The position numbers and the translations under genes are program-made. The notes beneath the pieces were generated by a model. That model worked only from the letters and a program-made list of their open reading frames with translations. It was not told the DNA's origin and did no database searches. Shown piece by piece: positions 2,749-41,474 of a stretch of 44,517 nt of DNA. Position 1 is the first letter of the stretch. The number at the start of each line of letters is the position of its first letter. The stretch comes from Escherichia phage vB_EcoM_SHAK7858. The stretch lies in sequence record OR594183, one strand, 5' to 3'.

Positions 2749-3825
2749 ATGCTATTAACTTTAGCGCCACAGGGTTTATCTATGAGCTTACTTACATCCC
2801 TAATCAGCCATCAGATATGGCTGCAACGCACCGCATCCGGTGAGGTGAAAGACCTCACGCCGTTCATTCAGGAGATAAGGGATGAAATCAAACGGCAGGT
2901 GCTGTTATTCGGTGACGACGGTCGCAGCACTGCGCGACTGAATAAACTGTTACGCGACCTGGAAGAAGCACTAACCGGTATTACGGGTGACTGGCAAACA
3001 AAGCTAACAGACGACCTTAAGGAACTGGCGGCGTACGAGGCTGAGTGGAACGTAAAGACACTGACCGCCAACGTAGACGCGGAATTTGTTACGCCTACCG
3101 CTGAGCAGGTATGGGCCGCTGCCGAGTTTCAACCATTATCATTGAGCGACAAGCCCGTTGATTTCACCAAGCTGATGTCTGGATGGGGCGAAACGGAAGT
3201 AGCACGTCTTGTAACTGGAGTTAAGATGGGCTTTGTGCAAGGTCAAACCACACGGCAGATTGTTAAGAATGTTGTTGGCGCTGGTGGACTAGCCGACATC
3301 TCAGAACGTAACGCGACTACGGTAATCCGCACCGCGCTGTCCCACGTATCCAACGAGGCCCGTAACGAGACGTACCGCCAGAACGACGACATCATCGAGA
3401 AGTACGAGTGGGTGTCAACGCTTGACAGCCGCACCAGTACGATTTGCAGGGTCAGAGACGGGATGACGTGGGAAATTGGTAAGGGGCCGATGCCCCCAGC
3501 CCATCCGAACTGCCGGTCGTGCACGGCTCCGGTAATCAGTTCCGAGTTCGACTTCCTCGATAAAGGCGCAAAACGCGCGGCTAAAGGCGCGGAAGGTGGC
3601 ACTCAGGTAAGCGCAGACACCACTTACTACGAGTTCCTTAAACAACAACCGGCGTGGTTTCAGGACCAGGCGCTCGGCCCGGTGCGAGGTAAGATTTTCC
3701 GTAACAGCGGTATATCGCCGGAAGAGTTTCGCGTAATATCTGTAGATGGTTTCGGGAATCCGCTCACGCTTAAGCAGATGGCGGAACTCGATAAACGTGT
3801 TGCTGATTATCTGAAAGGGGAATAA
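2749..3825 (+). CDS. Head morphogenesis protein (Mu gpF-like minor head protein)
   Basis: Conserved C-terminal HPNCRSC motif typical of the Mu F family; position after portal. Start could be 2749 or the ATG near 2779. Confidence 0.75.
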   Translation: MLLTLAPQGLSMSLLTSLISHQIWLQRTASGEVKDLTPFIQEIRDEIKRQVLLFGDDGRSTARLNKLLRDLEEALTGITGDWQTKLTDDLKELAAYEAEWNVKTLTANVDAEFVTPTAEQVWAAAEFQPLSLSDKPVDFTKLMSGWGETEVARLVTGVKMGFVQGQTTRQIVKNVVGAGGLADISERNATTVIRTALSHVSNEARNETYRQNDDIIEKYEWVSTLDSRTSTICRVRDGMTWEIGKGPMPPAHPNCRSCTAPVISSEFDFLDKGAKRAAKGAEGGTQVSADTTYYEFLKQQPAWFQDQALGPVRGKIFRNSGISPEEFRVISVDGFGNPLTLKQMAELDKRVADYLKGE

Positions 3826-4286
3826 TGATGGGCTTTTTCAAAGTAACTGACGTACCGTCTCGTCGCGTAGTCCAGTACGCCCGCGTGTCTGGCTCGGGCG
3901 AGAACGTGGTATTTATTGAGGACGAAAGTGTACTCGGTACACCGGTAGATGATATGCCGTTTGCAGATAAAACCGGTATTGCGTTGCCCGCCGCCGGTGT
4001 GCTTTATGAAATTCCGTATCTGGCGGACGCTGGCGACGTGTATTTCTCTGTGCAACCGAAAGACGCTGAACTGGCAGACGGCAGCGCGACTATCACTGTC
4101 GAAGTTAAGGCGGGTAAAGCGCCGTATACGCTGACCTGGTACAAAGACGGTAAGGAAGTGGTAAACGCCCCAGAAGAGGCTTTGTCTCTGTCGGTTAATG
4201 CGGTAGGTGAATACTTCGTTAAAGTTACTGATGCCGATGGCGTAGAGGTGGTGAGTAAAGCGGCGAAGGTCACTAAGCCAGAATGA
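3825..4286 (+). CDS. Ig-like domain protein (possible head decoration or accessory protein)
   Basis: C-terminal PYTLTWYKDGKEV...GEYFVKV pattern resembles an Ig-like fold; paralogous to the ORF at 7601-7951. Confidence 0.5.
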   Translation: MMGFFKVTDVPSRRVVQYARVSGSGENVVFIEDESVLGTPVDDMPFADKTGIALPAAGVLYEIPYLADAGDVYFSVQPKDAELADGSATITVEVKAGKAPYTLTWYKDGKEVVNAPEEALSLSVNAVGEYFVKVTDADGVEVVSKAAKVTKPE

Positions 4287-4290
4287 CAAA

Positions 4291-4321
4291 AGGCCCCGTT
4301 ATGGGGCCTTAGTTTTATTTT
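4291..4321. terminator. Bidirectional rho-independent terminator
   Basis: aggcccc-gttat-ggggcct followed by a T-run; lies between convergent genes. Confidence 0.6.
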
Positions 4322-4523
4322 AACGGAACCTTGTGTTTATGTAATCCTCATGCACGACCCTCAGAACAGTGTCGTAGTCCCCGTATCTTGCAGGGTCAAA
4401 TACATATAACGCCCTCTCAGCAGAATTTACGTCAGGGAAAACCTGAAGAACCTTTTTAACCCGGCACAAGTCGCCATCAAATTCTTCATCGAACTCTTGA
4501 ACTACTTCGCAAATCGCATACAT
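4320..4523 (-). CDS. Hypothetical small acidic protein (67 aa), reverse-strand orphan inside the head module
   Basis: ORF with a strong SD (aggagg) before the ATG, its own upstream promoter with the recurrent palindrome, terminator downstream. Confidence 0.55.
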   Translation of the reverse strand: MYAICEVVQEFDEEFDGDLCRVKKVLQVFPDVNSAERALYVFDPARYGDYDTVLRVVHEDYINTRFR

Positions 4524-4549
4524 TTCCGCCTCCTGTTTAATTTGACTGA

Positions 4550-4578
4550 ATAGTACCCTATTATGTTGTGGTGTGCAA
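4550..4578 (-). promoter_or_regulatory. Sigma70-like promoter (TTGCAC-N17-TACTAT) with embedded palindrome TGAATAG-N4-CTATTAT
   Basis: Hexamers and spacing read on the minus strand; palindrome at about 4547-4564; directly upstream of the 4320-4523 gene. Confidence 0.45.
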
Positions 4579-4644
4579 ACTATTTGTTTACGTATTCCAG
4601 TTATTCCACTCGATTGTAAATGTAGGAATAAACTATTCGAATAG

Positions 4645-4787
4645 TTGACTTTTCACTAAAAATGTGCTAAGCTCCACCTGAGCTTGTGAAGTATGAACAA
4701 GCGACCGCGGCGCGGGCAGGTAACGGAGCGGGACGTAAGTCCTGAGTGTAGTTACGCTGACGCGTTCGGAAGGGCCATACTCTATTG
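4645..4787 (+). promoter_or_regulatory. Conserved promoter-leader element, copy 1 (TTGACT-N17-TAAGCT plus about 115 nt of leader)
   Basis: About 80 percent identical by eye to 36228-36370, with a 51-nt perfectly identical core at 4660-4710; inverted repeat aagctc-cacct-gagctt at the -10/+1 region. Confidence 0.5.
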
Positions 4788-4853
4788 CTTGTGTAAAAAG
4801 TAACAGGTTTACTTAGATTACGCCGTTTCTATGTTTAAATGATAAGGACTAGC

Positions 4854-4880
4854 GCCCTGCTTTAAGGCAGGGCTTTACTT
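4854..4880 (+). terminator. Terminator-like hairpin in the leader upstream of the spanin genes
   Basis: gccctgc-tttaag-gcagggc followed by tttactt, about 190 nt downstream of the promoter at 4645. Confidence 0.4.
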
Positions 4881-4897
4881 ATCGAGAAAGGAGAAAC

Positions 4898-5284
4898 ATG
4901 AATCTTAAAGCAACCGTCGTAGCAGGAGCATGTTTCATCATCCTGGCTTACACACACGGCATTTATCAGTACCGCAGCGGCTGGCACGAAGGCCGGGCGA
5001 ATCTCGTTTCGCAGCAACAGCAGAAAGCGCAGGCGGAGTTAGCGAAGAAAACACAACGGCAGCAGCAGGACGAATCAAAGGCCGCCGCCGCCGACAACGA
5101 AGGCAAGACGAAATCAGAGGTGATTACCCGTGAAGTCGTTAAATACATTAAAACGCCGGGTCGCAGCGTGTGCACTTTCGACGATGCTCGCGTCCTGCTC
5201 AAGTCCCACGCCGTCGCAAACGCTAATTCCATTACCGGATACGACGATGATGCAGCCTCCGTGCAAACTGGCAGCGCCAAGTAG
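4898..5284 (+). CDS. Inner-membrane spanin component (Rz-like)
   Basis: N-terminal transmembrane segment followed by a Gln/Ala-rich helical region; a lipoprotein ORF overlaps in another frame. Confidence 0.55.
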   Translation: MNLKATVVAGACFIILAYTHGIYQYRSGWHEGRANLVSQQQQKAQAELAKKTQRQQQDESKAAAADNEGKTKSEVITREVVKYIKTPGRSVCTFDDARVLLKSHAVANANSITGYDDDAASVQTGSAK

Positions 5285-5393
5285 CGACGCTGACGAGGAT
5301 TTAGCTATCGACGTTCAGAACGCTGAATGCGTACGGCAGCTGCGGCTGAAAGTGTTCATGTTGCAGGATTACGTGAGGAATATTCTGGAATAG
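5130..5393 (+). CDS. Outer-membrane spanin component (Rz1-like lipoprotein), GTG start
   Basis: Signal peptide with lipobox LASC, proline-rich mature region, overlaps the 3' part of the Rz-like gene in a different frame and extends beyond it. Confidence 0.55.
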   Translation: MKSLNTLKRRVAACALSTMLASCSSPTPSQTLIPLPDTTMMQPPCKLAAPSSDADEDLAIDVQNAECVRQLRLKVFMLQDYVRNILE

Positions 5394-5475
5394 TTGCCTT
5401 GTATGTTGGAATAATTTATTCTTGACATGTAAATCCGGGAGGCCCGGATTCCAACGTCCAGGGGACATACTGACT

Positions 5476-6180
5476 ATGAATCGTTTTTTACGTTATCCGT
5501 TCCAGGAAGAAGCTGGGGCAGAAGATAAAGCTGGTGGCGGTGACGCGCCTAAAATGTTCACCGCTGAAGAAGTTCAGGCGCTGATTGAGAAAGAAGTTGC
5601 CGGGCTTAAGGCTAATCAGGAAGCATTGTTGGCGGAGAAGAAAGAAGCCGCTCGCAAAGCAAAAGAGGCCGAAGAAGAACGGCAGCGCGCGCACCAGGAG
5701 GCGTTAAAAGCCGCTGGTAAGATGGATGAGTTCGAAAAGACGATTCGTAGCCAGTATGACCCGGTGCTAGCCGAGAAAGATGGTCGCATCTCCAAAATGG
5801 CAGAGCGTATCCTCGGCAGCGAACGTAAAGCGGTGCTAGGCTCTTTCGCGGGTGACTTTATTACCCCAGAAGCAGTGGACATTCTTGCTCCGTTCGTTAA
5901 GACTGAGTTTGAAGGCGATGACGTGGTTACTAAGTTTGTTGGCGCAGACGGCAACGTAATCACGACTGACCCGGAACAGTTCCGCAAATACTTGCGAGAA
6001 CACAAAGCGTTTTCACATTTGATTAAAGCAAATGCAGCTTCCGGCGGCGGGGCTTCCGGTAGCAAAGGCGGCGGGGCCGCACCAGCGTTTAAAGACATGA
6101 GTGAAGCGGAGCGTATCGCTCTGTACGAATCGAACCCTGCCGAATTTGAACGGCAACTTAAAGCCCTGAGGAAAAAATAA
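5476..6180 (+). CDS. Head scaffolding protein (putative)
   Basis: Helical, charged, Ala/Glu/Lys-rich protein immediately upstream of the major capsid gene. ORF track opens at 5422 (TTG); the first ATG is at 5476. Confidence 0.5.
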   Translation: MNRFLRYPFQEEAGAEDKAGGGDAPKMFTAEEVQALIEKEVAGLKANQEALLAEKKEAARKAKEAEEERQRAHQEALKAAGKMDEFEKTIRSQYDPVLAEKDGRISKMAERILGSERKAVLGSFAGDFITPEAVDILAPFVKTEFEGDDVVTKFVGADGNVITTDPEQFRKYLREHKAFSHLIKANAASGGGASGSKGGGAAPAFKDMSEAERIALYESNPAEFERQLKALRKK

Positions 6181-7229
6181 TGGCAATTACTACTATCGGC
6201 GACATCGTAACTGGTAAAGAATCGGTAATCCTGTCCTACATGACAGAGGACCCGGTAGAGAAAACCGCGTTCTTCCAGTCCGGTATCCTTACCTCGACTC
6301 CGTATGCCGCCGCTATCGCAAACGGCCCGTCCAACAAAGCGGTCCTGCCGTACTGGAAAGCTATTGATACCTCTATCGAGCCGAACTACTCGAACGACGT
6401 ATATCAGGACGTCGCCACCCCGCGTAACGTGCAAACCGGTGAGATGGATGTTCGCGTAGCTTACCTGAACGAAGGTTTTGGTCAGGCGGATTTGACTGTC
6501 GAACTGACCAGCCAGAACCCGCTGCAATCCGTAGCGTCCCGTCTGGATAACTTCTGGCAGCGCCAGGCACAACGCCGTCTGATTGCTACCGCGCTCGGTC
6601 TGTACAACGACAACGTAGCTGCTACCGATGCTTACCACGAGCAGAACGACATGGTTATCGACGTGTCTGCTACTCTGGGCTTCGATGTGGGCGCGTTCAT
6701 CGACGCTACCCAGACTATGGGCGATGCTCTGACGGGCAACGGCGGTGAAGTGCTGGGGGCTATCGCGATGCATAGCTTCGTTTATGCGCAGGCACGTAAG
6801 CAGCAGCTTATCGACTTCATCCGTGACGCGGACAACAACACCATGTTCGCCACCTACCAGGGCTACCGCGTGATTGTTGACGACAGCATGACCGTAGTCG
6901 GCACTGGCCCGACCCGTAAGTTCATCTCCATCATCTTCGGCAACGGCGCTATCGGTTACGGCGAAGGTTCTCCGTCCAACCCGCTGGAATACGAGCGCGA
7001 AGCGTCCCGCGGCAACGGCGGCGGCGTTGAAACCCTGTGGACCCGTAAGACCTGGTTGCTACATCCGTTTGGTTACAGCTTCACCAGCGCAGTAATCACC
7101 GGTAACGGCACCGAGACTGTCGCACGTTCTGCTTCCTGGCAGGACCTGGCGAACGCCTCTAACTGGAGCCGTGTTGTTGACCGTAAGCACGTACCGATTG
7201 CCTTCCTGGTAACTGGTGTCGGTGCTTAA
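6180..7229 (+). CDS. Major capsid protein
   Basis: 349 aa ORF directly after the scaffold, followed by a strong terminator; call by position and size. Confidence 0.75.
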   Translation: MAITTIGDIVTGKESVILSYMTEDPVEKTAFFQSGILTSTPYAAAIANGPSNKAVLPYWKAIDTSIEPNYSNDVYQDVATPRNVQTGEMDVRVAYLNEGFGQADLTVELTSQNPLQSVASRLDNFWQRQAQRRLIATALGLYNDNVAATDAYHEQNDMVIDVSATLGFDVGAFIDATQTMGDALTGNGGEVLGAIAMHSFVYAQARKQQLIDFIRDADNNTMFATYQGYRVIVDDSMTVVGTGPTRKFISIIFGNGAIGYGEGSPSNPLEYEREASRGNGGGVETLWTRKTWLLHPFGYSFTSAVITGNGTETVARSASWQDLANASNWSRVVDRKHVPIAFLVTGVGA

Positions 7230-7246
7230 GGTTAAGCTATAATCGA

Positions 7247-7273
7247 GAGGGACTTCGGTCCCTCTTTTCATTT
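7247..7273 (+). terminator. Rho-independent terminator after the major capsid gene
   Basis: gagggac-ttcg-gtccctc followed by ttttcattt. Confidence 0.6.
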
Positions 7274-14061: not shown

Positions 14062-14103
14062 AACATAACTCCTGATTTGAGATAACATCGTTGGTGTAAG
14101 TGA

Positions 14104-14132
14104 ATAGTACGCTATTATATTGGGGTGTGCAA
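14104..14132 (-). promoter_or_regulatory. Sigma70-like promoter (TTGCAC-N17-TACTAT) with embedded palindrome TGAATAG-N4-CTATTAT
   Basis: Same architecture as the promoter at 4550-4578; drives the reverse-strand cassette. Confidence 0.45.
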
Positions 14133-14239
14133 GTAGTGTGCTAGAATAATTTTGCGCCTAGTGTCGCACACGAAAAGCGGGTGGTTCCCGTCTGGCGCAT
14201 TTCCTTTAACCAGTAACCTCTTAACCAAAGGATTAAAGA

Positions 14240-26524: not shown

Positions 26525-26809
26525 CTAACTATAATAGTTCGCTATTAGGTCGTCAACCTGTTTAAACGAACCAACGACAAAAACATTTGCACCGCGTTTA
26601 CGGAATCTTTCATGCTCGCGTAACTGGTGGGGGTCAGGCTTCGTGTTTTCGTCTTTCTTAATCTCGACGAACCAGATGATACCGCCGGGGAGAATTACCA
26701 GCAGGTCCATGGCGGCTCGCCGGCCTTCAAATGCCATCTTGCGAACGAGGCCGCCGATGGCCTCGAATTGCTCTTTTGCGTATTTCTGTATTTTGCCTTC
26801 CGGGGTCAT
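26525..26809 (-). CDS. VRR-NUC domain nuclease
   Basis: PD-(D/E)XK-like pattern D...EIK (DLLVILPGGIIWFVEIKK) in a 94 aa protein adjacent to an SNF2 helicase. Confidence 0.7.
   Translation of the reverse strand: MTPEGKIQKYAKEQFEAIGGLVRKMAFEGRRAAMDLLVILPGGIIWFVEIKKDENTKPDPHQLREHERFRKRGANVFVVGSFKQVDDLIANYYS
26528..26556 (-). promoter_or_regulatory. Sigma70-like promoter (TTGACG-N17-TATAGT) with embedded palindrome ATAATAG-N4-CTATTAG
   Basis: Read on the minus strand; overlaps the 3' end of the VRR-NUC coding region. Confidence 0.45.
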
Positions 26810-30082: not shown

Positions 30083-30111
30083 ACTATAATAGCTAACTAT
30101 TCATGTGTCAA
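30083..30111 (-). promoter_or_regulatory. Sigma70-like promoter (TTGACA-N17-TATAGT) with embedded palindrome ATAATAG-N4-CTATTCA
   Basis: Read on the minus strand, upstream of the SSB-like gene; palindrome at 30086-30103. Confidence 0.45.
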
Positions 30112-32649: not shown

Positions 32650-32678
32650 ACTATAATAGCGAACTATTCACATGTCAA
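32650..32678 (-). promoter_or_regulatory. Leftward promoter (TTGACA-N17-TATAGT) with embedded palindrome ATAATAG-N4-CTATTCA
   Basis: Read on the minus strand; palindrome at 32653-32670; part of the divergent control region next to the HTH gene. Confidence 0.5.
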
Positions 32679-35728: not shown

Positions 35729-35941
35729 TTACTTAACGCCCGCAATCCACGCACGCTCCGAAGCGTAGAAACGACACTTACTTAAAGCCTCGATTGGCAT
35801 CTTAATAATGCGTGTCGGTTCCAACAAATGATTAGGCTTACATATTTCCGCATAGAATCCGCTGTCAGTAATTTCCGACGCAAACTTAAACCAGTATTTA
35901 ACTTTACAGTTTTCAAAGTAACAACCCATACGCCCAATCAT
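35729..35941 (-). CDS. Hypothetical protein (70 aa)
   Basis: ORF translationally coupled to the upstream HTH gene. Confidence 0.4.
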   Translation of the reverse strand: MIGRMGCYFENCKVKYWFKFASEITDSGFYAEICKPNHLLEPTRIIKMPIEALSKCRFYASERAWIAGVK

Positions 35942-36120
35942 TTCACGTTCTCCTTAATCCATGCTTCAACTTTATTACGGTCAAATGTTCCTGGTAAACG
36001 GCGACCCATAACCTTAATACAGCAATCAGGGAATTTACCGCTGCGCAACCAGTTATTAATTGTTTGACGTGTCACCCCGATACGTTCAGCCACTTCATTC
36101 TGTGTCATGTAATGCTGCAT
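35938..36120 (-). CDS. Small HTH DNA-binding protein (AlpA/excisionase-like fold)
   Basis: MTQNEVAERIGVTRQTINNWLRSGKFP; start taken at the ATG with SD aggagat. Confidence 0.55.
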   Translation of the reverse strand: MQHYMTQNEVAERIGVTRQTINNWLRSGKFPDCCIKVMGRRLPGTFDRNKVEAWIKENVK

Positions 36121-36227: not shown

Positions 36228-36370
36228 TTGACTTTTACTAAGAAATGTGCTAAGCTCCACCTGAGCTTGTGAAGTATGAACAAGCGACCGCGGTGCGGCA
36301 GGAAACGGAGCGGTGCGTCAGCACTGAGTGTAGTGTCGCTGCCTGCATTCGGAAGGGCCATAATCTATTG
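36228..36370 (+). promoter_or_regulatory. Conserved promoter-leader element, copy 2 (TTGACT-N17-TAAGCT plus leader)
   Basis: Same length as copy 1 at 4645-4787, identical 51-nt core at 36243-36293, diverged centre retaining the 10-mer ctgagtgtag. Confidence 0.5.
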
Positions 36371-36457
36371 TAAATCCCGTCTAAATAACCCAAGTCACTA
36401 ATAATTAAAAGTTTCTATAGTTGCCGTAAGCAAGGTAGAGAGTACTTCACTCCGCTG

Positions 36458-36536: not shown

Positions 36537-36565
36537 TTGCACACCCCAACATAATAGGATACTAT
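36537..36565 (+). promoter_or_regulatory. Sigma70-like promoter (TTGCAC-N17-TACTAT) with embedded palindrome ATAATAG-N4-CTATTCA
   Basis: Palindrome at 36551-36568; about 35 nt upstream of the ATG at 36600. Confidence 0.45.
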
Positions 36566-36599
36566 TCACTTATCGAAACGAGACATAAGGAATTTAGAA

Positions 36600-37794: not shown

Positions 37795-37828
37795 CAGGTC
37801 AATAGTTTACTATTTGGCTTTGTGACTT

Positions 37829-37866
37829 ACGCTGCTACACAGCAGCGTATCATTTTTCTCATTTTT
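37829..37866 (+). terminator. Rho-independent terminator
   Basis: acgctgct-acac-agcagcgt followed by atcatttttctcattttt. Confidence 0.6.
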
Positions 37867-37942: not shown

Positions 37943-37971
37943 TTGCACACTAAAATAGAATAGGCTACTAT
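37943..37971 (+). promoter_or_regulatory. Sigma70-like promoter (TTGCAC-N17-TACTAT) with embedded palindrome AGAATAG-N4-CTATTCA
   Basis: Palindrome at 37957-37974; followed by the aaacgagaggagagacagag leader. Confidence 0.45.
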
Positions 37972-38001
37972 TCATTTACACAAACGAGAGGAGAGACAGA
38001 G

Positions 38002-39889: not shown

Positions 39890-39929
39890 ATCCTCCAGTT
39901 ACTGCATACTTAATACGCACCTGGAGGAT
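39890..39929 (+). promoter_or_regulatory. Perfect 9-bp inverted repeat (atcctccag ... ctggaggat) whose 3' arm contains the holin Shine-Dalgarno
   Basis: Arms separated by 22 nt; GGAGGA lies in the 3' arm, 6 nt before the TTG start at 39935. Confidence 0.45.
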
Positions 39930-39934
39930 TCATC

Positions 39935-40243
39935 TTGGATAAATTTACTGAAACAGTGACGGGGTGGCTTCTCGCTGCCGCATTAGCTGGTGGGGTAATA
40001 GGCTTACGGCAACACAAAGCCACTATTACCGGCCCTGTAGATGCTCTCTGTTTTCTCGCCACTGGCTTTGCGTGCGCCGTATTCGGTGCGCCTCTCGCCG
40101 CTCAATGGTTCGGTATCGCAGGTGAACGCGAAATAGCGGGCCTTGGATTCATCATTGCTATTCTCTGGATGCCAATTTATTCACGTCTCTCTGGCATTGT
40201 CGCTGGAGAATACATCGCACGTCGCGGAGGTGGTAATGAATGA
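39935..40243 (+). CDS. Holin (three predicted TM segments), TTG start
   Basis: 102 aa with three hydrophobic helices and a charged C-terminus; precedes a second membrane protein and the lysozyme. Confidence 0.55.
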   Translation: MDKFTETVTGWLLAAALAGGVIGLRQHKATITGPVDALCFLATGFACAVFGAPLAAQWFGIAGEREIAGLGFIIAILWMPIYSRLSGIVAGEYIARRGGGNE

Positions 40244-40508
40244 GTTATTCTGGTTTGGTGGTATGCTCGCAATCGGGAGCACATCGCTGTTTAACGTATA
40301 CCACCCCAGCGTAGATGATGGCCTGTTCGGGCGTGTGCTTTATATTCTGACTGCTATTGTCTGCGCCGCCGGATGTATCCACCTGTTACAGGGCAGCATG
40401 TCACCTACGCTGCCTGAGACATTAATTACATTAGTTGCGCTGCGTCAGATTCGTCAGGCGTGGCTGTCGTACGGAGGACATAAGCGTGTCTCGAAACATT
40501 TCAGATAA
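40236..40508 (+). CDS. Small membrane protein (second holin or antiholin-like component)
   Basis: Two hydrophobic helices; ATGAATGA overlap with the holin stop; SD ggagg. Confidence 0.45.
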   Translation: MNELFWFGGMLAIGSTSLFNVYHPSVDDGLFGRVLYILTAIVCAAGCIHLLQGSMSPTLPETLITLVALRQIRQAWLSYGGHKRVSKHFR

Positions 40509-41001
40509 TGGACTTAGCCATGACTATGTTCGTAGCGTTTTAGAATACAACCCTGACACAGGATTATTCACGTGGCTTAAGACGGTTAGTTCAAAAGCCC
40601 CTAAAGGGACTGTGCCTGACGGGATAGACCCGGACGGGTATAAAGTAATCATGCTCAAAGGTAAATACCTACGGCAACACAGGCTTGCATGGTTTTATAT
40701 GACCGGAGAGTGGCCGATAGGGCAGATAGACCACCGGAACGGGGTAAGAGACGATAATAGGTTTTGTAACCTGAGAGAATGTGATTCGCAGGATAACAAC
40801 CGCAACCGTGGGCTGTCGCGCAACAACACCAGTGGGGTATCAGGAGTCCATAGACAGCAAGGGAAATGGATGGTAAGAATCCGTTTGCAAAAAGGTGTGC
40901 GCAAGTTTTTCGGTTACTTCGATGACCTTGAGTTCGCTGAGTTAGTAGCTAGCGAAGCCCGAGATAAATATCACAAGGAGTTCTCTTTATGCGCTCGATG
41001 A
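40486..41001 (+). CDS. HNH homing endonuclease with AP2-like DNA-binding domain, GTG start
   Basis: QHRLAW...IDHRNG..DDNR..NLRECD..NNRN HNH core followed by GVSGVHRQQGKWMVRIRLQKGVRKFFGYFDD; SD ggagg 8 nt before the GTG. Confidence 0.8.
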   Translation: MSRNISDNGLSHDYVRSVLEYNPDTGLFTWLKTVSSKAPKGTVPDGIDPDGYKVIMLKGKYLRQHRLAWFYMTGEWPIGQIDHRNGVRDDNRFCNLRECDSQDNNRNRGLSRNNTSGVSGVHRQQGKWMVRIRLQKGVRKFFGYFDDLEFAELVASEARDKYHKEFSLCAR

Positions 41002-41474
41002 GTGACAACGGCCTCAAGTTTACTGCGGCTTGGGAAGATTTCCGTGGGACCGCCTACCGCGCGACACCTTCGGAAAAATACTTAACCATAGGCTACGGAA
41101 GCTATGGCCCTCATGTGTATGAAGGACAGACCATCACACCAGGGCAAGGCCTCCTGTTACTGAATCGTGATATGGCTAAAGCCGTTGCTGCGGTCGATGC
41201 GGCAGCACACCATTCGCTTACACAGGCGCAGTTCGACGCTGTGTGTGACCTGGTATACAACGCAGGTGCTGGTGTGATTGCTGCTACTACCGGCACGGGT
41301 AAGGCACTGCGTTCTGGTGATATTGCAACGCTGCGGGCTAAGCTGGCGCTGTTCATCAACCAGAACGGCAAACCGTTACTAGGCCTGCGTCGCCGTACCG
41401 CCGGTCGTCTGGCGCTGTTCGACGGTAAACCGTGGCAAGAGGCAGAGGCTATCGGGCGCGCGGTGAAAGGTTGA
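40989..41474 (+). CDS. Endolysin, lysozyme-type muramidase
   Basis: N-terminal catalytic pattern (E in WEDF, D/T, TIGYG) reminiscent of phage lysozymes; SD aaggag; terminator downstream. Confidence 0.7.
   Translation: MRSMSDNGLKFTAAWEDFRGTAYRATPSEKYLTIGYGSYGPHVYEGQTITPGQGLLLLNRDMAKAVAAVDAAAHHSLTQAQFDAVCDLVYNAGAGVIAATTGTGKALRSGDIATLRAKLALFINQNGKPLLGLRRRTAGRLALFDGKPWQEAEAIGRAVKG

What the first reader, a model, noticed from the sequence alone, without database searches (positions are those of the whole stretch)
4898..5393. Spanin pair located in the head module, far from holin and endolysin
An Rz-like inner-membrane protein and an overlapping Rz1-like lipoprotein (lipobox LASC, proline-rich) lie between the Ig-like head gene and the scaffold gene, about 8 kb from the holin-endolysin genes across the terminase junction. 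They are expressed from the duplicated promoter-leader element rather than with the rest of the lysis cassette, so the lysis functions are split across two transcription units.
Basis: partly seen in the sequence, partly recalled or inferred. Interest (0 to 1): 0.5.

Follow-up and report, generated by a model that had tools for sequence, protein, structure and literature searches.

The report
Known spanin pair in head module
The two overlapping genes are a real inner-membrane/outer-membrane spanin pair that breaks the host outer membrane at lysis, but both this spanin family and its position away from the holin and endolysin genes are already published for this phage group, so the finding is ordinary.

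Summary
ORF 4898-5284 encodes a 128-aa protein with one N-terminal membrane anchor. ORF 5130-5393 starts at a GTG in the +1 frame, overlaps the first ORF by 155 nt, and encodes an 87-aa lipoprotein precursor with lipobox LAS|C. They lie between the Hoc-like head decoration gene and the scaffold gene, 7.9 kb from the endolysin gene across the genome junction.

The window is a Kagunavirus-like (Guernseyvirinae) coliphage genome. The pair belongs to the "Jersey" overlapped spanin family catalogued by Kongari et al. 2018, with the same 155-bp overlap and the same conserved Cys45/Cys67. Many GenBank relatives annotate it as spanins. The Schulenberg genome announcement states that the holin/antiholin and endolysin genes are genetically separate from the spanin genes.

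The expression claim fits the sequence but was not tested by experiment. A strong bidirectional terminator and a minus-strand gene isolate the pair from upstream genes. It is preceded by a conserved extended -10 promoter, a roughly 115-nt structured leader and a terminator-like hairpin.

The second copy of the promoter-leader lies upstream of holin/endolysin on the same strand, but most relatives lack it.

The leader RNA, which has covariation support and no Rfam match, is the only possibly new item.

Verdict: already known, low interest.

The parts
4898..5284 (+). i-spanin gene (128 aa): N-terminal membrane anchor (about residues 5-23), helical periplasmic domain, conserved Cys92
   Evidence: ORF and translation come and the hydropathy values. 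It matches phrog_2536 'Rz-like spanin' at E 3e-54. It is 63% identical to the phage Jersey i-spanin and 92% to the Snoke i-spanin, with Cys92 invariant. A single-sequence AF2 model gives helices 3-84 and 94-107 at low-to-moderate confidence. The Snoke homologue is annotated with one TMHMM transmembrane domain, N-terminus in, C-terminus out.
5130..5393 (+). o-spanin gene (87-aa precursor, GTG start, +1 frame, 155-nt overlap with the i-spanin gene): SPII signal with lipobox LAS|C, mature 65-aa outer-membrane lipoprotein, Cys45 and Cys67
   Evidence: The lipobox regex, Shine-Dalgarno sequence, frame and overlap come. It matches phrog_5672 (E 3e-30) and phrog_1267 (E 2e-17). C23, C45 and C67 are invariant in five homologues down to 39% identity. 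It is the only credible lipobox ORF in the window.
5116..5123 (+). Shine-Dalgarno sequence AGAGGTGA for the o-spanin, inside the i-spanin coding sequence, 6 nt before the GTG
   Evidence: Read directly from the sequence. Phage Jersey has an ATG at the same position.
4290..4310 (.). Bidirectional intrinsic terminator after the Hoc-like gene. Together with the minus-strand ORF 4320-4523, it isolates the spanin unit from upstream transcription.
   Evidence: The terminator scan calls it on both strands. The hairpin is -15.9 kcal/mol and is followed by a U-run. The equivalent site is annotated as a terminator in phage Snoke.
4592..4638 (+). Conserved upstream sites: TATTCCAGTTATTCC direct repeat and GAATAAACTATTC palindrome (4626-4638), just upstream of the -35. 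Candidate binding sites for a regulator.
   Evidence: The repeat and palindrome are conserved in Kagunavirus-, Jerseyvirus- and Cornellvirus-type sequences. The palindrome type occurs only twice in the window.
4645..4673 (+). Promoter-like site TTGACT-17 nt-TAAGCT with an extended -10 TG (4665-4666). Inferred promoter of the spanin-scaffold-capsid unit.
   Evidence: Repeat family D2. The TGnTAnnnT -10 and the -35 are kept in all three genera. It falls below the threshold of the generic promoter scan (8 of 12 matches), so one search does not list it.
4674..4788 (+). Structured leader of about 115 nt: a P1 hairpin plus a long P2/P3 hairpin, with a conserved 3' GCRTTCGGAAGGGYC
   Evidence: Folding z-score is -2.85. 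RNAalifold predicts 32 pairs. On 26 distinct sequences, 97.1% of cells pair and 10 of 32 pairs show changes on both sides. The covariation score is 0.249 against 0.093 for shuffles (0 of 500 shuffles reach it) and at most 0.043 when partners are slid. There is no Rfam match at E up to 10.
4854..4882 (+). Terminator-like GC hairpin (GCCCTGC/GCAGGGC) followed by UUUACUUAU, ending about 15 nt before the spanin Shine-Dalgarno sequence. Possible attenuator.
   Evidence: Called by the terminator scan. Its stability is -15.7 kcal/mol, equal to the phage's other terminators. Relatives carry the compensatory change CCCTGC/GCAGGG to CCCCGC/GCGGGG, and Jersey and SP-031 have different GC hairpins at the same place.
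5409..5450 (+). Element after the o-spanin stop codon: palindrome GAATAATTTATTC, then TTGACA (5422-5427), then hairpin 5432-5450 in the scaffold 5' region. Possible internal regulatory site or promoter.
   Evidence: In Jersey the hairpin is kept through compensatory changes, AATCCGGG/CCCGGATT becoming ACACCGGG/CCCGGTGT. No -10 hexamer sits at the right spacing from the TTGACA (read from the sequence).
36228..36371 (+). Second copy of the promoter-leader (87% identical to 4645-4790), 3.6 kb upstream of the holin genes on the same strand
   Evidence: The covariance model scores it at 132 bits. About 42 of 180 related records have a second copy, and Bas73 has none.
39935..41474 (+). The rest of the lysis set: holin genes 39935-40243 and 40236-40508, an inserted HNH endonuclease ORF 40435-41001, and endolysin 40989-41474
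   Evidence: Phage_lysozyme E 4.7e-24; HNH_3 E 2.7e-12. Relatives annotate the same genes as holin, holin and endolysin.

Best explanation
The region encodes a two-component spanin of the 'Jersey' family in the overlapped gene arrangement.

How the proteins work (mechanism taken from work on lambda Rz/Rz1, not tested here):
- The i-spanin is anchored in the inner membrane by its N-terminal transmembrane segment and extends a mostly helical domain into the periplasm.
- The o-spanin is exported, lipidated on Cys23 after cleavage at LAS|C, and sorted to the inner leaflet of the outer membrane (Ser at +2).
- The C-terminal parts of the two proteins bind, so the complex spans the periplasm through the murein mesh. 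Conserved periplasmic cysteines (i-spanin Cys92; o-spanin Cys45 and Cys67) probably form intermolecular disulfides.
- Once holin and endolysin have removed the peptidoglycan, the complexes are free to fuse or disrupt the outer membrane, which completes lysis.

Why the genes can sit apart (inference): spanins are harmless until the wall is gone, so they need no tight linkage to the holin clock.

How they are expressed (inference from sequence):
- In this phage group the spanin genes are the first cistrons of a late head operon (spanins, scaffold, major capsid protein).
- That operon starts at a conserved extended -10 promoter at 4645-4673.
- It carries a structured leader of about 115 nt and a terminator-like hairpin just before the spanin ribosome-binding site.
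- The holin and endolysin genes lie in a different rightward unit.
For: Shown by the sequence:
- Both ORFs, the membrane anchor, the lipobox, the Shine-Dalgarno sequence, the +1 frame and the 155-nt overlap are present.
- This is the only lipobox ORF in the genome, and there is no spanin candidate next to the endolysin gene.

Family membership:
- The proteins match PHROG 'Rz-like spanin' families at E 3e-54 and 3e-30.
- They are 63% and 66% identical to the phage Jersey pair and 92% and 91% identical to the CPT-annotated Snoke i-/o-spanin. The lipid Cys, Cys45, Cys67 and i-spanin Cys92 are invariant.
- Kongari et al. 2018 (PMC6139136) define the Jersey i- and o-spanin families, which include K1G, K1H and K1ind1-3. 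They report a 155-bp overlap in Jersey and constant Cys at positions 45 and 67.

Position:
- The same head-module position is found in Jerseyvirus, Kagunavirus, Cornellvirus and Dhillonvirus.
- The separation from holin/endolysin is stated for phage Schulenberg (PMC6763661) and implicit for Golestan (PMC7203180).

Expression:
- A terminator and an antisense gene lie upstream.
- The promoter, leader and hairpin module is conserved in all spanin-linked copies.
- The leader has covariation support.
- A terminator follows the capsid gene at 7245-7266.
Against: - No experiment on any member of the Jersey spanin family was found, so the function rests on architecture and on analogy with lambda Rz/Rz1.
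- Pfam and NCBIfam give no significant hit for either protein, so homology to lambda Rz/Rz1 itself is not detectable.
- The 19-residue hydropathy of the membrane anchor is marginal (1.59).
- The single-sequence AF2 model has low confidence (pLDDT 62).
- The promoter has a weak -10 hexamer (3 of 6 matches) and was not called by the generic scan.
- No transcript mapping is available. The one Kagunavirus RNA-seq paper found does not mention the spanins, and no per-gene expression table is among its four held supplements.
Confidence: 0.88

Rival explanations
1. The pair is not a lysis device. Instead it would be a membrane protein plus a lipoprotein used for something else encoded in a structural module, for example superinfection exclusion or receptor blocking, as with T5 Llp or phi80 Cor.
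For: The pair lies in the head module, far from holin and endolysin. Pfam and NCBIfam show no similarity to lambda Rz/Rz1. No functional test of this family was found.
Against: - The defining two-gene architecture is kept across relatives down to 36-39% identity: a type II anchor protein plus an overlapping +1-frame lipoprotein with matching conserved periplasmic cysteines and conserved C-termini.
- The genome has no other spanin candidate, although it has a canonical holin and a soluble endolysin and infects a Gram-negative host.
- The curated spanin census places the family among two-component spanins.
Confidence: 0.05
2. Only the 128-aa ORF is a gene. The overlapping 87-aa GTG ORF would be a chance open frame, or the real product would be the 47-aa ATG-initiated version annotated in several relatives.
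For: Bas73 and other records annotate only a 47-aa product from an internal ATG. PHROG 5672 is a 47-position profile. The start codon is GTG.
Against: - The full frame with its signal peptide and lipobox Cys is open and conserved in every relative examined, including Bas73.
- Phage Jersey has an ATG at the same position.
- A strong Shine-Dalgarno sequence lies 6 nt upstream.
- In FSL SP-031 the homologous gene is essentially non-overlapping and still starts with a lipoprotein signal.
- Kongari et al. report that wrong o-spanin start codons are a common annotation error.
Confidence: 0.02
3. The spanins are not transcribed mainly from the promoter-leader. They would be made by read-through from the upstream head genes, and the 4645-4880 element would be an independent small-RNA gene that merely lies in front of them.
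For: - In Dhillonvirus the homologous pair follows the minor capsid gene directly, with no intergenic region.
- The element has its own promoter and ends in a stable hairpin with a partial U-tract, about 200 nt long, like a stand-alone sRNA.
- A second copy exists at a place with no spanin genes.
Against: - A strong bidirectional terminator and an oppositely oriented gene stand between the head genes and the spanins.
- The hairpin's U-tract is interrupted (UUUACUUAU; in Jersey UUAGCGUAU), which predicts leaky termination.
- The module is physically linked to the spanin start in every Guernseyvirinae sequence examined.
Confidence: 0.12

Closest known systems
Jersey i-spanin/o-spanin families (Kongari et al. 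2018, BMC Bioinformatics 19:326; members Jersey, SETP3, K1G, K1H, K1ind1-3, HK578 group)
   Same: Both have the overlapped arrangement with a 155-nt overlap. Both have an N-terminal transmembrane i-spanin with two helical segments. Both have an o-spanin with lipobox and conserved Cys45/Cys67. Identity to Jersey is 63% (i-spanin) and 66% (o-spanin).
   Different: Nothing of substance differs. The o-spanin here starts with GTG instead of ATG and has lipobox LASC instead of LNGC.
Spanin annotations in Kagunavirus/Guernseyvirinae genomes (Snoke MK931441; Golestan; K1H; Schulenberg announcement PMC6763661)
   Same: The gene order is the same: head morphogenesis, Hoc-like decoration, spanins, scaffold, capsid. 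Holin and endolysin lie elsewhere. The Schulenberg announcement states the separation explicitly.
   Different: This genome has a short minus-strand ORF (4320-4523) where Snoke has a sliding-clamp-like gene. It also carries an HNH endonuclease ORF between the holin and endolysin genes, which most relatives lack.
Lambda Rz/Rz1
   Same: Both have the same two-component logic: an inner-membrane anchor protein, plus an outer-membrane lipoprotein encoded in the +1 frame of the same DNA, with periplasmic cysteines.
   Different: There is no detectable sequence homology, since Pfam Rz/Rz1 models do not hit. In lambda, Rz1 is fully embedded and the genes are the last cistrons of the S-R-Rz/Rz1 cassette. 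[quoted passage not shown]
T4 PseT.3/PseT.2 and other phages with unclustered lysis genes
   Same: The spanin genes lie far from the holin (t) and endolysin (e) genes. Kongari et al. note that lysis genes are not clustered in T4-like phages.
   Different: The protein families differ, the T4 genes are in the separated arrangement, and they do not lie inside a head-assembly operon.
Lambda PR'-6S RNA-tR' late leader (and the StxS sRNA derived from it), and HK022 put RNAs
   Same: As a working analogy only, both have a promoter followed by a short structured transcript and a terminator-like hairpin, placed immediately before late or lysis genes. The comparison with lambda and HK022 rests on my own knowledge and on the abstract of PMC7547250 listed.
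   Different: There is no sequence or Rfam relationship. No Q-like or other antiterminator gene was identified. No functional evidence exists.

Membership tests
Two-component spanin (i-spanin + o-spanin) | The i-spanin is a small protein with a single N-terminal transmembrane domain (type II, N-terminus in, C-terminus out) and no cleavable signal. | tested here: met
   The one hydrophobic segment is residues 5-23 (KD15 2.17, KD19 1.59) and no lipobox regex match in the i-spanin. No A-x-A-type signal-peptidase site is apparent on reading the sequence. The Snoke homologue (92% identical) is annotated as TMHMM N-in/C-out. Topology itself was not tested by experiment.
Two-component spanin (i-spanin + o-spanin) | The periplasmic domain of the i-spanin is largely alpha-helical (two helical segments joined by a linker). 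| tested here: inconclusive
   A single-sequence AF2 model gives helices 3-84 and 94-107, but mean pLDDT is only 61.7. This agrees with the published description of the Jersey family.
Two-component spanin (i-spanin + o-spanin) | The o-spanin has a signal peptidase II signal with a lipobox Cys and no Asp at +2, which gives outer-membrane sorting. | tested here: met
   The regex matches MKSLNTLKRRVAACALSTMLAS|C, and residues +2 and +3 are Ser-Ser. The Cys is invariant in homologues.
Two-component spanin (i-spanin + o-spanin) | The two genes are adjacent in an embedded, overlapped or separated arrangement, with the o-spanin in the +1 frame when they overlap. | tested here: met
   The arrangement is overlapped: +1 frame, 155 nt shared and 109 nt beyond the i-spanin stop.
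Two-component spanin (i-spanin + o-spanin) | Periplasmic cysteines are present in both subunits. | tested here: met
   The i-spanin Cys92 and the o-spanin Cys45 and Cys67 are invariant.
Two-component spanin (i-spanin + o-spanin) | The pair is required for outer-membrane disruption and complements lambda Rz/Rz1 defects. | not testable with these tools
   This needs genetics. No published test of this family was found.
Jersey spanin family (Kongari 2018) | Significant sequence similarity of the periplasmic domains to the Jersey or K1H i- and o-spanins. | tested here: met
   Identity to Jersey is 63% and 66%. tblastn shows 92% identity to K1H. phrog_2536 scores E 3e-54.
Jersey spanin family (Kongari 2018) | Overlapped arrangement with a 155-bp overlap, and constant Cys45 and Cys67 in the o-spanin. 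| tested here: met
   The overlap here is 155 nt and the cysteines are at precursor positions 45 and 67.
Lambda Rz (Pfam Phage_lysis) / Rz1 families | A match to the Pfam family models for Rz and Rz1. | tested here: not met
   No such Pfam hit appears at E up to 1. The only hit is a sub-threshold DUF2514 match (E 0.017, 15.6 bits against a cutoff of 26). NCBIfam gives no meaningful hit. The pair works like Rz/Rz1 but is not a detectable sequence homologue.
Rfam RNA families (for the leader 4674-4788) | A covariance-model match to any of the 4227 families. | tested here: not met
   There is no relevant match at gathering threshold or at E up to 10.

The most novel reading that the evidence does not exclude
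The spanin genes would be the first cistrons of a late operon governed by an undescribed structured 5' leader RNA that is found across the subfamily.

The leader:
- It consists of a P1 hairpin plus a long P2/P3 hairpin, spans 4674-4788 and has no Rfam match.
- A terminator-like hairpin follows at 4854-4873.
- In some phages, including this one, a second copy heads the rightward block that contains holin and endolysin.

Possible roles:
- It could act in cis to let RNA polymerase read through the phage's internal terminators, as HK022 put RNAs do.
- It could yield a regulatory small RNA by early termination, as with lambda 6S/StxS.

Either role would make it a new RNA element that couples head assembly and outer-membrane lysis functions to one switch.
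Probability: 0.2. Interest if true: 0.5.

Novelty: already known. Interest (0 to 1): 0.12.

Why it matters
The finding matters little as it stands. It confirms a correct reading of the sequence, but the spanin family, its overlapped architecture and its separation from holin/endolysin are all in the literature and in GenBank annotations.

Two practical points follow:
- Several recent relatives (for example Bas70-76) annotate the o-spanin from an internal ATG as a 47-aa protein without its lipoprotein signal. Those annotations should be corrected.
- The conserved promoter, structured leader and hairpin module in front of the spanin genes is a defined, testable candidate for how these phages switch on their late head and lysis genes. 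No transcript mapping for it was found in the literature searches run here.

Tried and rejected
- Pfam and NCBIfam scans of both spanins gave nothing significant, so family placement rests on PHROGs, direct alignments and the published census.
- Rfam gave no match for the leader, either over the whole window at gathering threshold or over 4520-5480 at E up to 10.
- A MAFFT/RNAalifold run over all three genus types recovered only the basal stem, because the interior was misaligned. I therefore folded the Kagunavirus and Jersey types separately. I then used a covariance model to make a structure-aware alignment. That alignment leans towards the model. The FSL SP-031 leader was not recovered by the model at E up to 1.
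The single-sequence model is weak, and I did not run fold searches on it.
- The 36-aa ORF at 4693-4803, annotated as a hypothetical protein in Bas73 and Snoke, was considered as a leader peptide and rejected. Its start lies in the P1 loop, which is replaced in Jersey-type leaders. Indels between the two copies in this window shift its frame.
- The Kagunavirus K1B4 RNA-seq paper was checked for spanin timing. It never mentions spanins or holins, and no per-gene expression table is among its four held supplements, which I did not open.
- A whole-genome search for other lipobox ORFs, as alternative spanins near the lysis cassette, found only two implausible antisense ORFs.
- A paper search for the phage Snoke announcement found nothing.
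Full report
**1. What is there**

The window is a complete siphophage genome of 44.5 kb. It starts at the large terminase gene and is about 94-95% identical over the queried 1.6-kb spanin region to E. coli Kagunavirus-like phages (Bas70-76, phiEc3, K-01).

At the stated coordinates there are two overlapping plus-strand ORFs.

- ORF 4898-5284 (128 aa) has an AAGGAG ribosome-binding site. Its single hydrophobic stretch is at residues 5-23, and the rest of the protein is Q/A/K-rich.
- ORF 5130-5393 (87 aa) starts at a GTG six nucleotides after AGAGGTGA. It is in the +1 frame, shares 155 nt with the first ORF and runs 109 nt beyond it.
- Its N-terminus, MKSLNTLKRRVAACALSTMLAS|C, matches a lipoprotein signal pattern.
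- Ser follows the lipid Cys at +2. The mature 65-aa protein has 7 prolines and two more cysteines.
- No other credible lipobox ORF exists anywhere in the window.

- A Hoc-like, Ig-domain head decoration gene lies at 3825-4286.
- The scaffold gene lies at 5476-6180.
- The major head protein gene lies at 6180-7229.

The rest of the lysis set lies far away:

- Two holin genes are at 39935-40243 and 40236-40508.
- A soluble lysozyme-type endolysin gene is at 40989-41474.
- This is 7,940 nt from the spanin start across the genome junction.

**2. What it is**

Both proteins hit PHROG families named 'Rz-like spanin': phrog_2536 at E 3e-54, phrog_5672 at E 3e-30 and phrog_1267 at E 2e-17. tblastn finds the i-spanin in 528 phage records, mostly Salmonella and Escherichia Guernseyvirinae. 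Many of these annotate the locus as 'putative spanin', 'Rz-like spanin' or 'i-spanin/o-spanin'.

I aligned the pair with the homologues from Snoke, Jersey, FSL SP-031 and the Dhillonvirus Oekolampad. Across identities down to 36-39%, the following are conserved:

- a variable but always hydrophobic N-terminus in the i-spanin;
- an invariant i-spanin Cys92;
- an invariant o-spanin lipid Cys;
- invariant o-spanin Cys45 and Cys67;
- a strongly conserved o-spanin C-terminus.

A single-sequence AF2 model of the i-spanin is weak (pLDDT 62), but it shows one long helix (3-84) and a second helix (94-107).

**3. Comparison with what is known**

Kongari et al. 2018 (PMC6139136) list a 'Jersey' i-spanin family and a 'Jersey' o-spanin family in the overlapped class. 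Members include Jersey, SETP3, K1G, K1H, K1ind1-3 and the HK578 group. The paper states that the Jersey spanin genes overlap by 155 bp and that Cys45 and Cys67 of the o-spanin are constant. Both values are exactly what I measured here.

The head-module position is conserved in several groups:

- Jerseyvirus (Jersey);
- Kagunavirus (Bas73 and Snoke);
- Cornellvirus (FSL SP-031);
- Dhillonvirus (Oekolampad), where the homologous pair follows the minor capsid gene directly.

The separation from the rest of the lysis genes is also in print.

- The Golestan paper lists holins as ORF66/67, endolysin as ORF68 and spanins as ORF7/8 (PMC7203180).
- Kongari et al. also note that lysis genes are unclustered in T4-like phages.

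The finding is therefore correct but already known.

Pfam and NCBIfam models do not detect either protein. The pair works like lambda Rz/Rz1 but is not a detectable sequence homologue of it.

**4. How it most likely works**

The mechanism is taken from established work on lambda Rz/Rz1 and is not shown here.

- The i-spanin is anchored in the inner membrane and the lipidated o-spanin in the outer membrane.
- Their C-termini join across the periplasm, and the conserved cysteines probably form intermolecular disulfides.
- Once holin and endolysin have destroyed the murein, the complexes disrupt or fuse the outer membrane.

Spanins are inert until the wall is removed, so they can accumulate with the structural proteins and need no linkage to the holin gene. 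This is a sufficient and unsurprising reason for their position.

**5. The expression claim**

Upstream transcription from the head genes meets a strong bidirectional terminator at 4290-4310 (-15.9 kcal/mol, followed by a U-run). It then meets a minus-strand ORF (4320-4523) that has its own promoter.

The only promoter-like site in the gap is TTGACT-17-TAAGCT with a TG extended -10, at 4645-4673. It scores 8 of 12 matches, so the generic scan did not list it. However, the -35 hexamer and the TGnTAnnnT -10 are kept in the Kagunavirus and Jerseyvirus upstream regions. Cornellvirus keeps only the -10 pattern, with a poor -35.

A leader of about 115 nt follows (4674-4788), and it is a conserved structured RNA.

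- Kagunavirus-type and Jersey-type leaders have the same architecture: a P1 hairpin and then a long composite hairpin.
- The P1 sequences are entirely different between the two types.
- In a covariance-model alignment of 26 distinct sequences, 97% of cells pair and 10 of 32 pairs change on both sides.
- The covariation score is 0.249, against 0.093 in shuffles (0 of 500 reach it) and at most 0.043 when partners are slid.
- That alignment is fitted to the model, which favours the structure.
- Rfam has no match.

About 65 nt further on there is a GC hairpin (4854-4873, -15.7 kcal/mol) followed by UUUACUUAU. It sits just before the spanin Shine-Dalgarno sequence.

- It is as stable as the phage's other terminators.
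- It is kept through compensatory changes in relatives.
- Jersey and SP-031 have different GC hairpins at the same place, each with a poor U-tract.

The next strong plus-strand terminator is after the capsid gene, at 7245-7266. The simplest reading is therefore a late unit of spanins, scaffold and capsid that starts at 4645-4673, with a leaky attenuator in its leader.

A second palindrome of the same type as the one upstream of the promoter lies right after the o-spanin stop codon. The first is GAATAAACTATTC at 4626-4638. The second is GAATAATTTATTC at 5409-5421, abutting TTGACA and a conserved hairpin. These are the only two such palindromes in the window. The scaffold gene may thus have additional control of its own.

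**6. The 'duplicated' element**

The promoter plus leader recurs at 36228-36371 at 87% identity, and several of the differences are compensatory. This copy faces the same way as the holin and endolysin genes and lies 3.6 kb upstream of them.

The link is loose, however, for four reasons.

- Two promoters of the phage's other class lie in between, at about 36537 and 37940. These have the form TTGCAC-17-TACTAT with an AATAG-N4-CTATT operator.
- A terminator-like hairpin lies in between at 37828-37849.
- Only about 42 of 180 related records carry a second copy.
- Bas73 has none.

By contrast, every spanin-linked Kagunavirus and Jerseyvirus sequence examined carries the spanin-linked copy. In Cornellvirus FSL SP-031 only a more divergent counterpart is visible, and the covariance model did not recover it.

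No transcript data settle any of this. The one Kagunavirus RNA-seq study found does not mention spanins or holins, and its held supplements list no per-gene expression table.

**7. Verdict**

Novelty is nil for the spanin pair and its location.

The only element that may be new is the structured leader in front of the spanin genes. I record it as a lead with partial support, not as a finding about the spanins.

Noticed in passing
window 4674-4788 and 36257-36371 (promoters at 4645-4673 and 36228-36256): This is a conserved structured RNA of about 115 nt that follows an extended -10 promoter, with no Rfam match. One copy sits before the spanin genes in every Kagunavirus and Jerseyvirus sequence examined. 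A second copy occurs in a minority of genomes. Covariation supports the structure: 10 of 32 pairs change on both sides, and the score is 0.249 against 0.093 for shuffles.
   Followed up: partly
window 4693-4803: This 36-aa ORF is annotated as a hypothetical protein in Bas73 and Snoke, but it lies inside the structured leader. Its start codon is in the P1 loop, which Jersey-type leaders lack, and indels between the two copies in this window shift its frame. It is probably not a gene.
   Followed up: partly
L001 (Bas73) 5861-6004 versus 5741-6004; PHROG 5672: Bas73 annotates the o-spanin from an internal ATG as a 47-aa protein lacking the signal peptide and lipobox. One search lists the same 'Rz-like spanin (x2)' annotation for Bas70-76. 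The full 87-codon GTG-initiated frame with lipobox LSAC is intact in Bas73. PHROG 5672 is a 47-position profile that matches only residues 41-87 of the o-spanin.
   Followed up: yes
window 4626-4638 and 5409-5421; also 4592-4607: GAATA-N-TATTC palindromes occur only twice in the window, one on each side of the spanin genes, each abutting a TTGAC motif. A TATTCCAGTTATTCC direct repeat lies further upstream. All are conserved in Jersey- and Cornellvirus-type sequences, so they are candidate sites for an unidentified regulator.
   Followed up: partly
window 4549-4562, 14103-14116, 26533-26546, 30088-30101, 32655-32668, 36553-36566, 37801-37814, 37959-37972: AATAG-N4-CTATT inverted repeats form a family. 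Most sit in the spacer of sigma-70-like promoters (TTGACA/TTGCAC-17-TATAGT/TACTAT) that head the replication and early gene blocks on both strands. This looks like a shared operator.
   Followed up: partly
window 14151-14215 (+): This is the only Rfam hit in the window above the gathering threshold: int-alpA RNA (RF02996, 36.6 bits). It lies just upstream of the tail assembly chaperone gene and follows a GTGCTAGAAT extended -10 that resembles the spanin promoter's GTGCTAAGCT.
   Followed up: partly
window 40435-41001 (+): An HNH_3 endonuclease ORF (188 aa, E 2.7e-12) lies between the second holin gene and the endolysin gene and overlaps both. Of 143 related records that match this region, only one (vB_Ec_DUEC01) covers the insertion.
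   Followed up: partly
window 39890-39929 (+): A 9-bp stem (AUCCUCCAG/CUGGAGGAU, -16.7 kcal/mol for the region) pairs the first holin's Shine-Dalgarno sequence GGAGGA just before its TTG start codon. This may be translational control of the holin.
   Followed up: no
window 35941-36120 (-): This 60-aa helix-turn-helix protein (Pfam HTH_17, E 1.6e-8; its relative is annotated 'excisionase and transcriptional regulator') is the first gene of the leftward block. It is transcribed divergently from the second promoter-leader copy, which makes it a candidate regulator.
   Followed up: no
L029 (Salmonella phage MB78, X87092) 1640-2311: In this record the gene downstream of the spanin homologue (p26/p28, at the scaffold position) is annotated with a programmed ribosomal frameshift at 2252-2258. 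I did not check this in the window.
   Followed up: no
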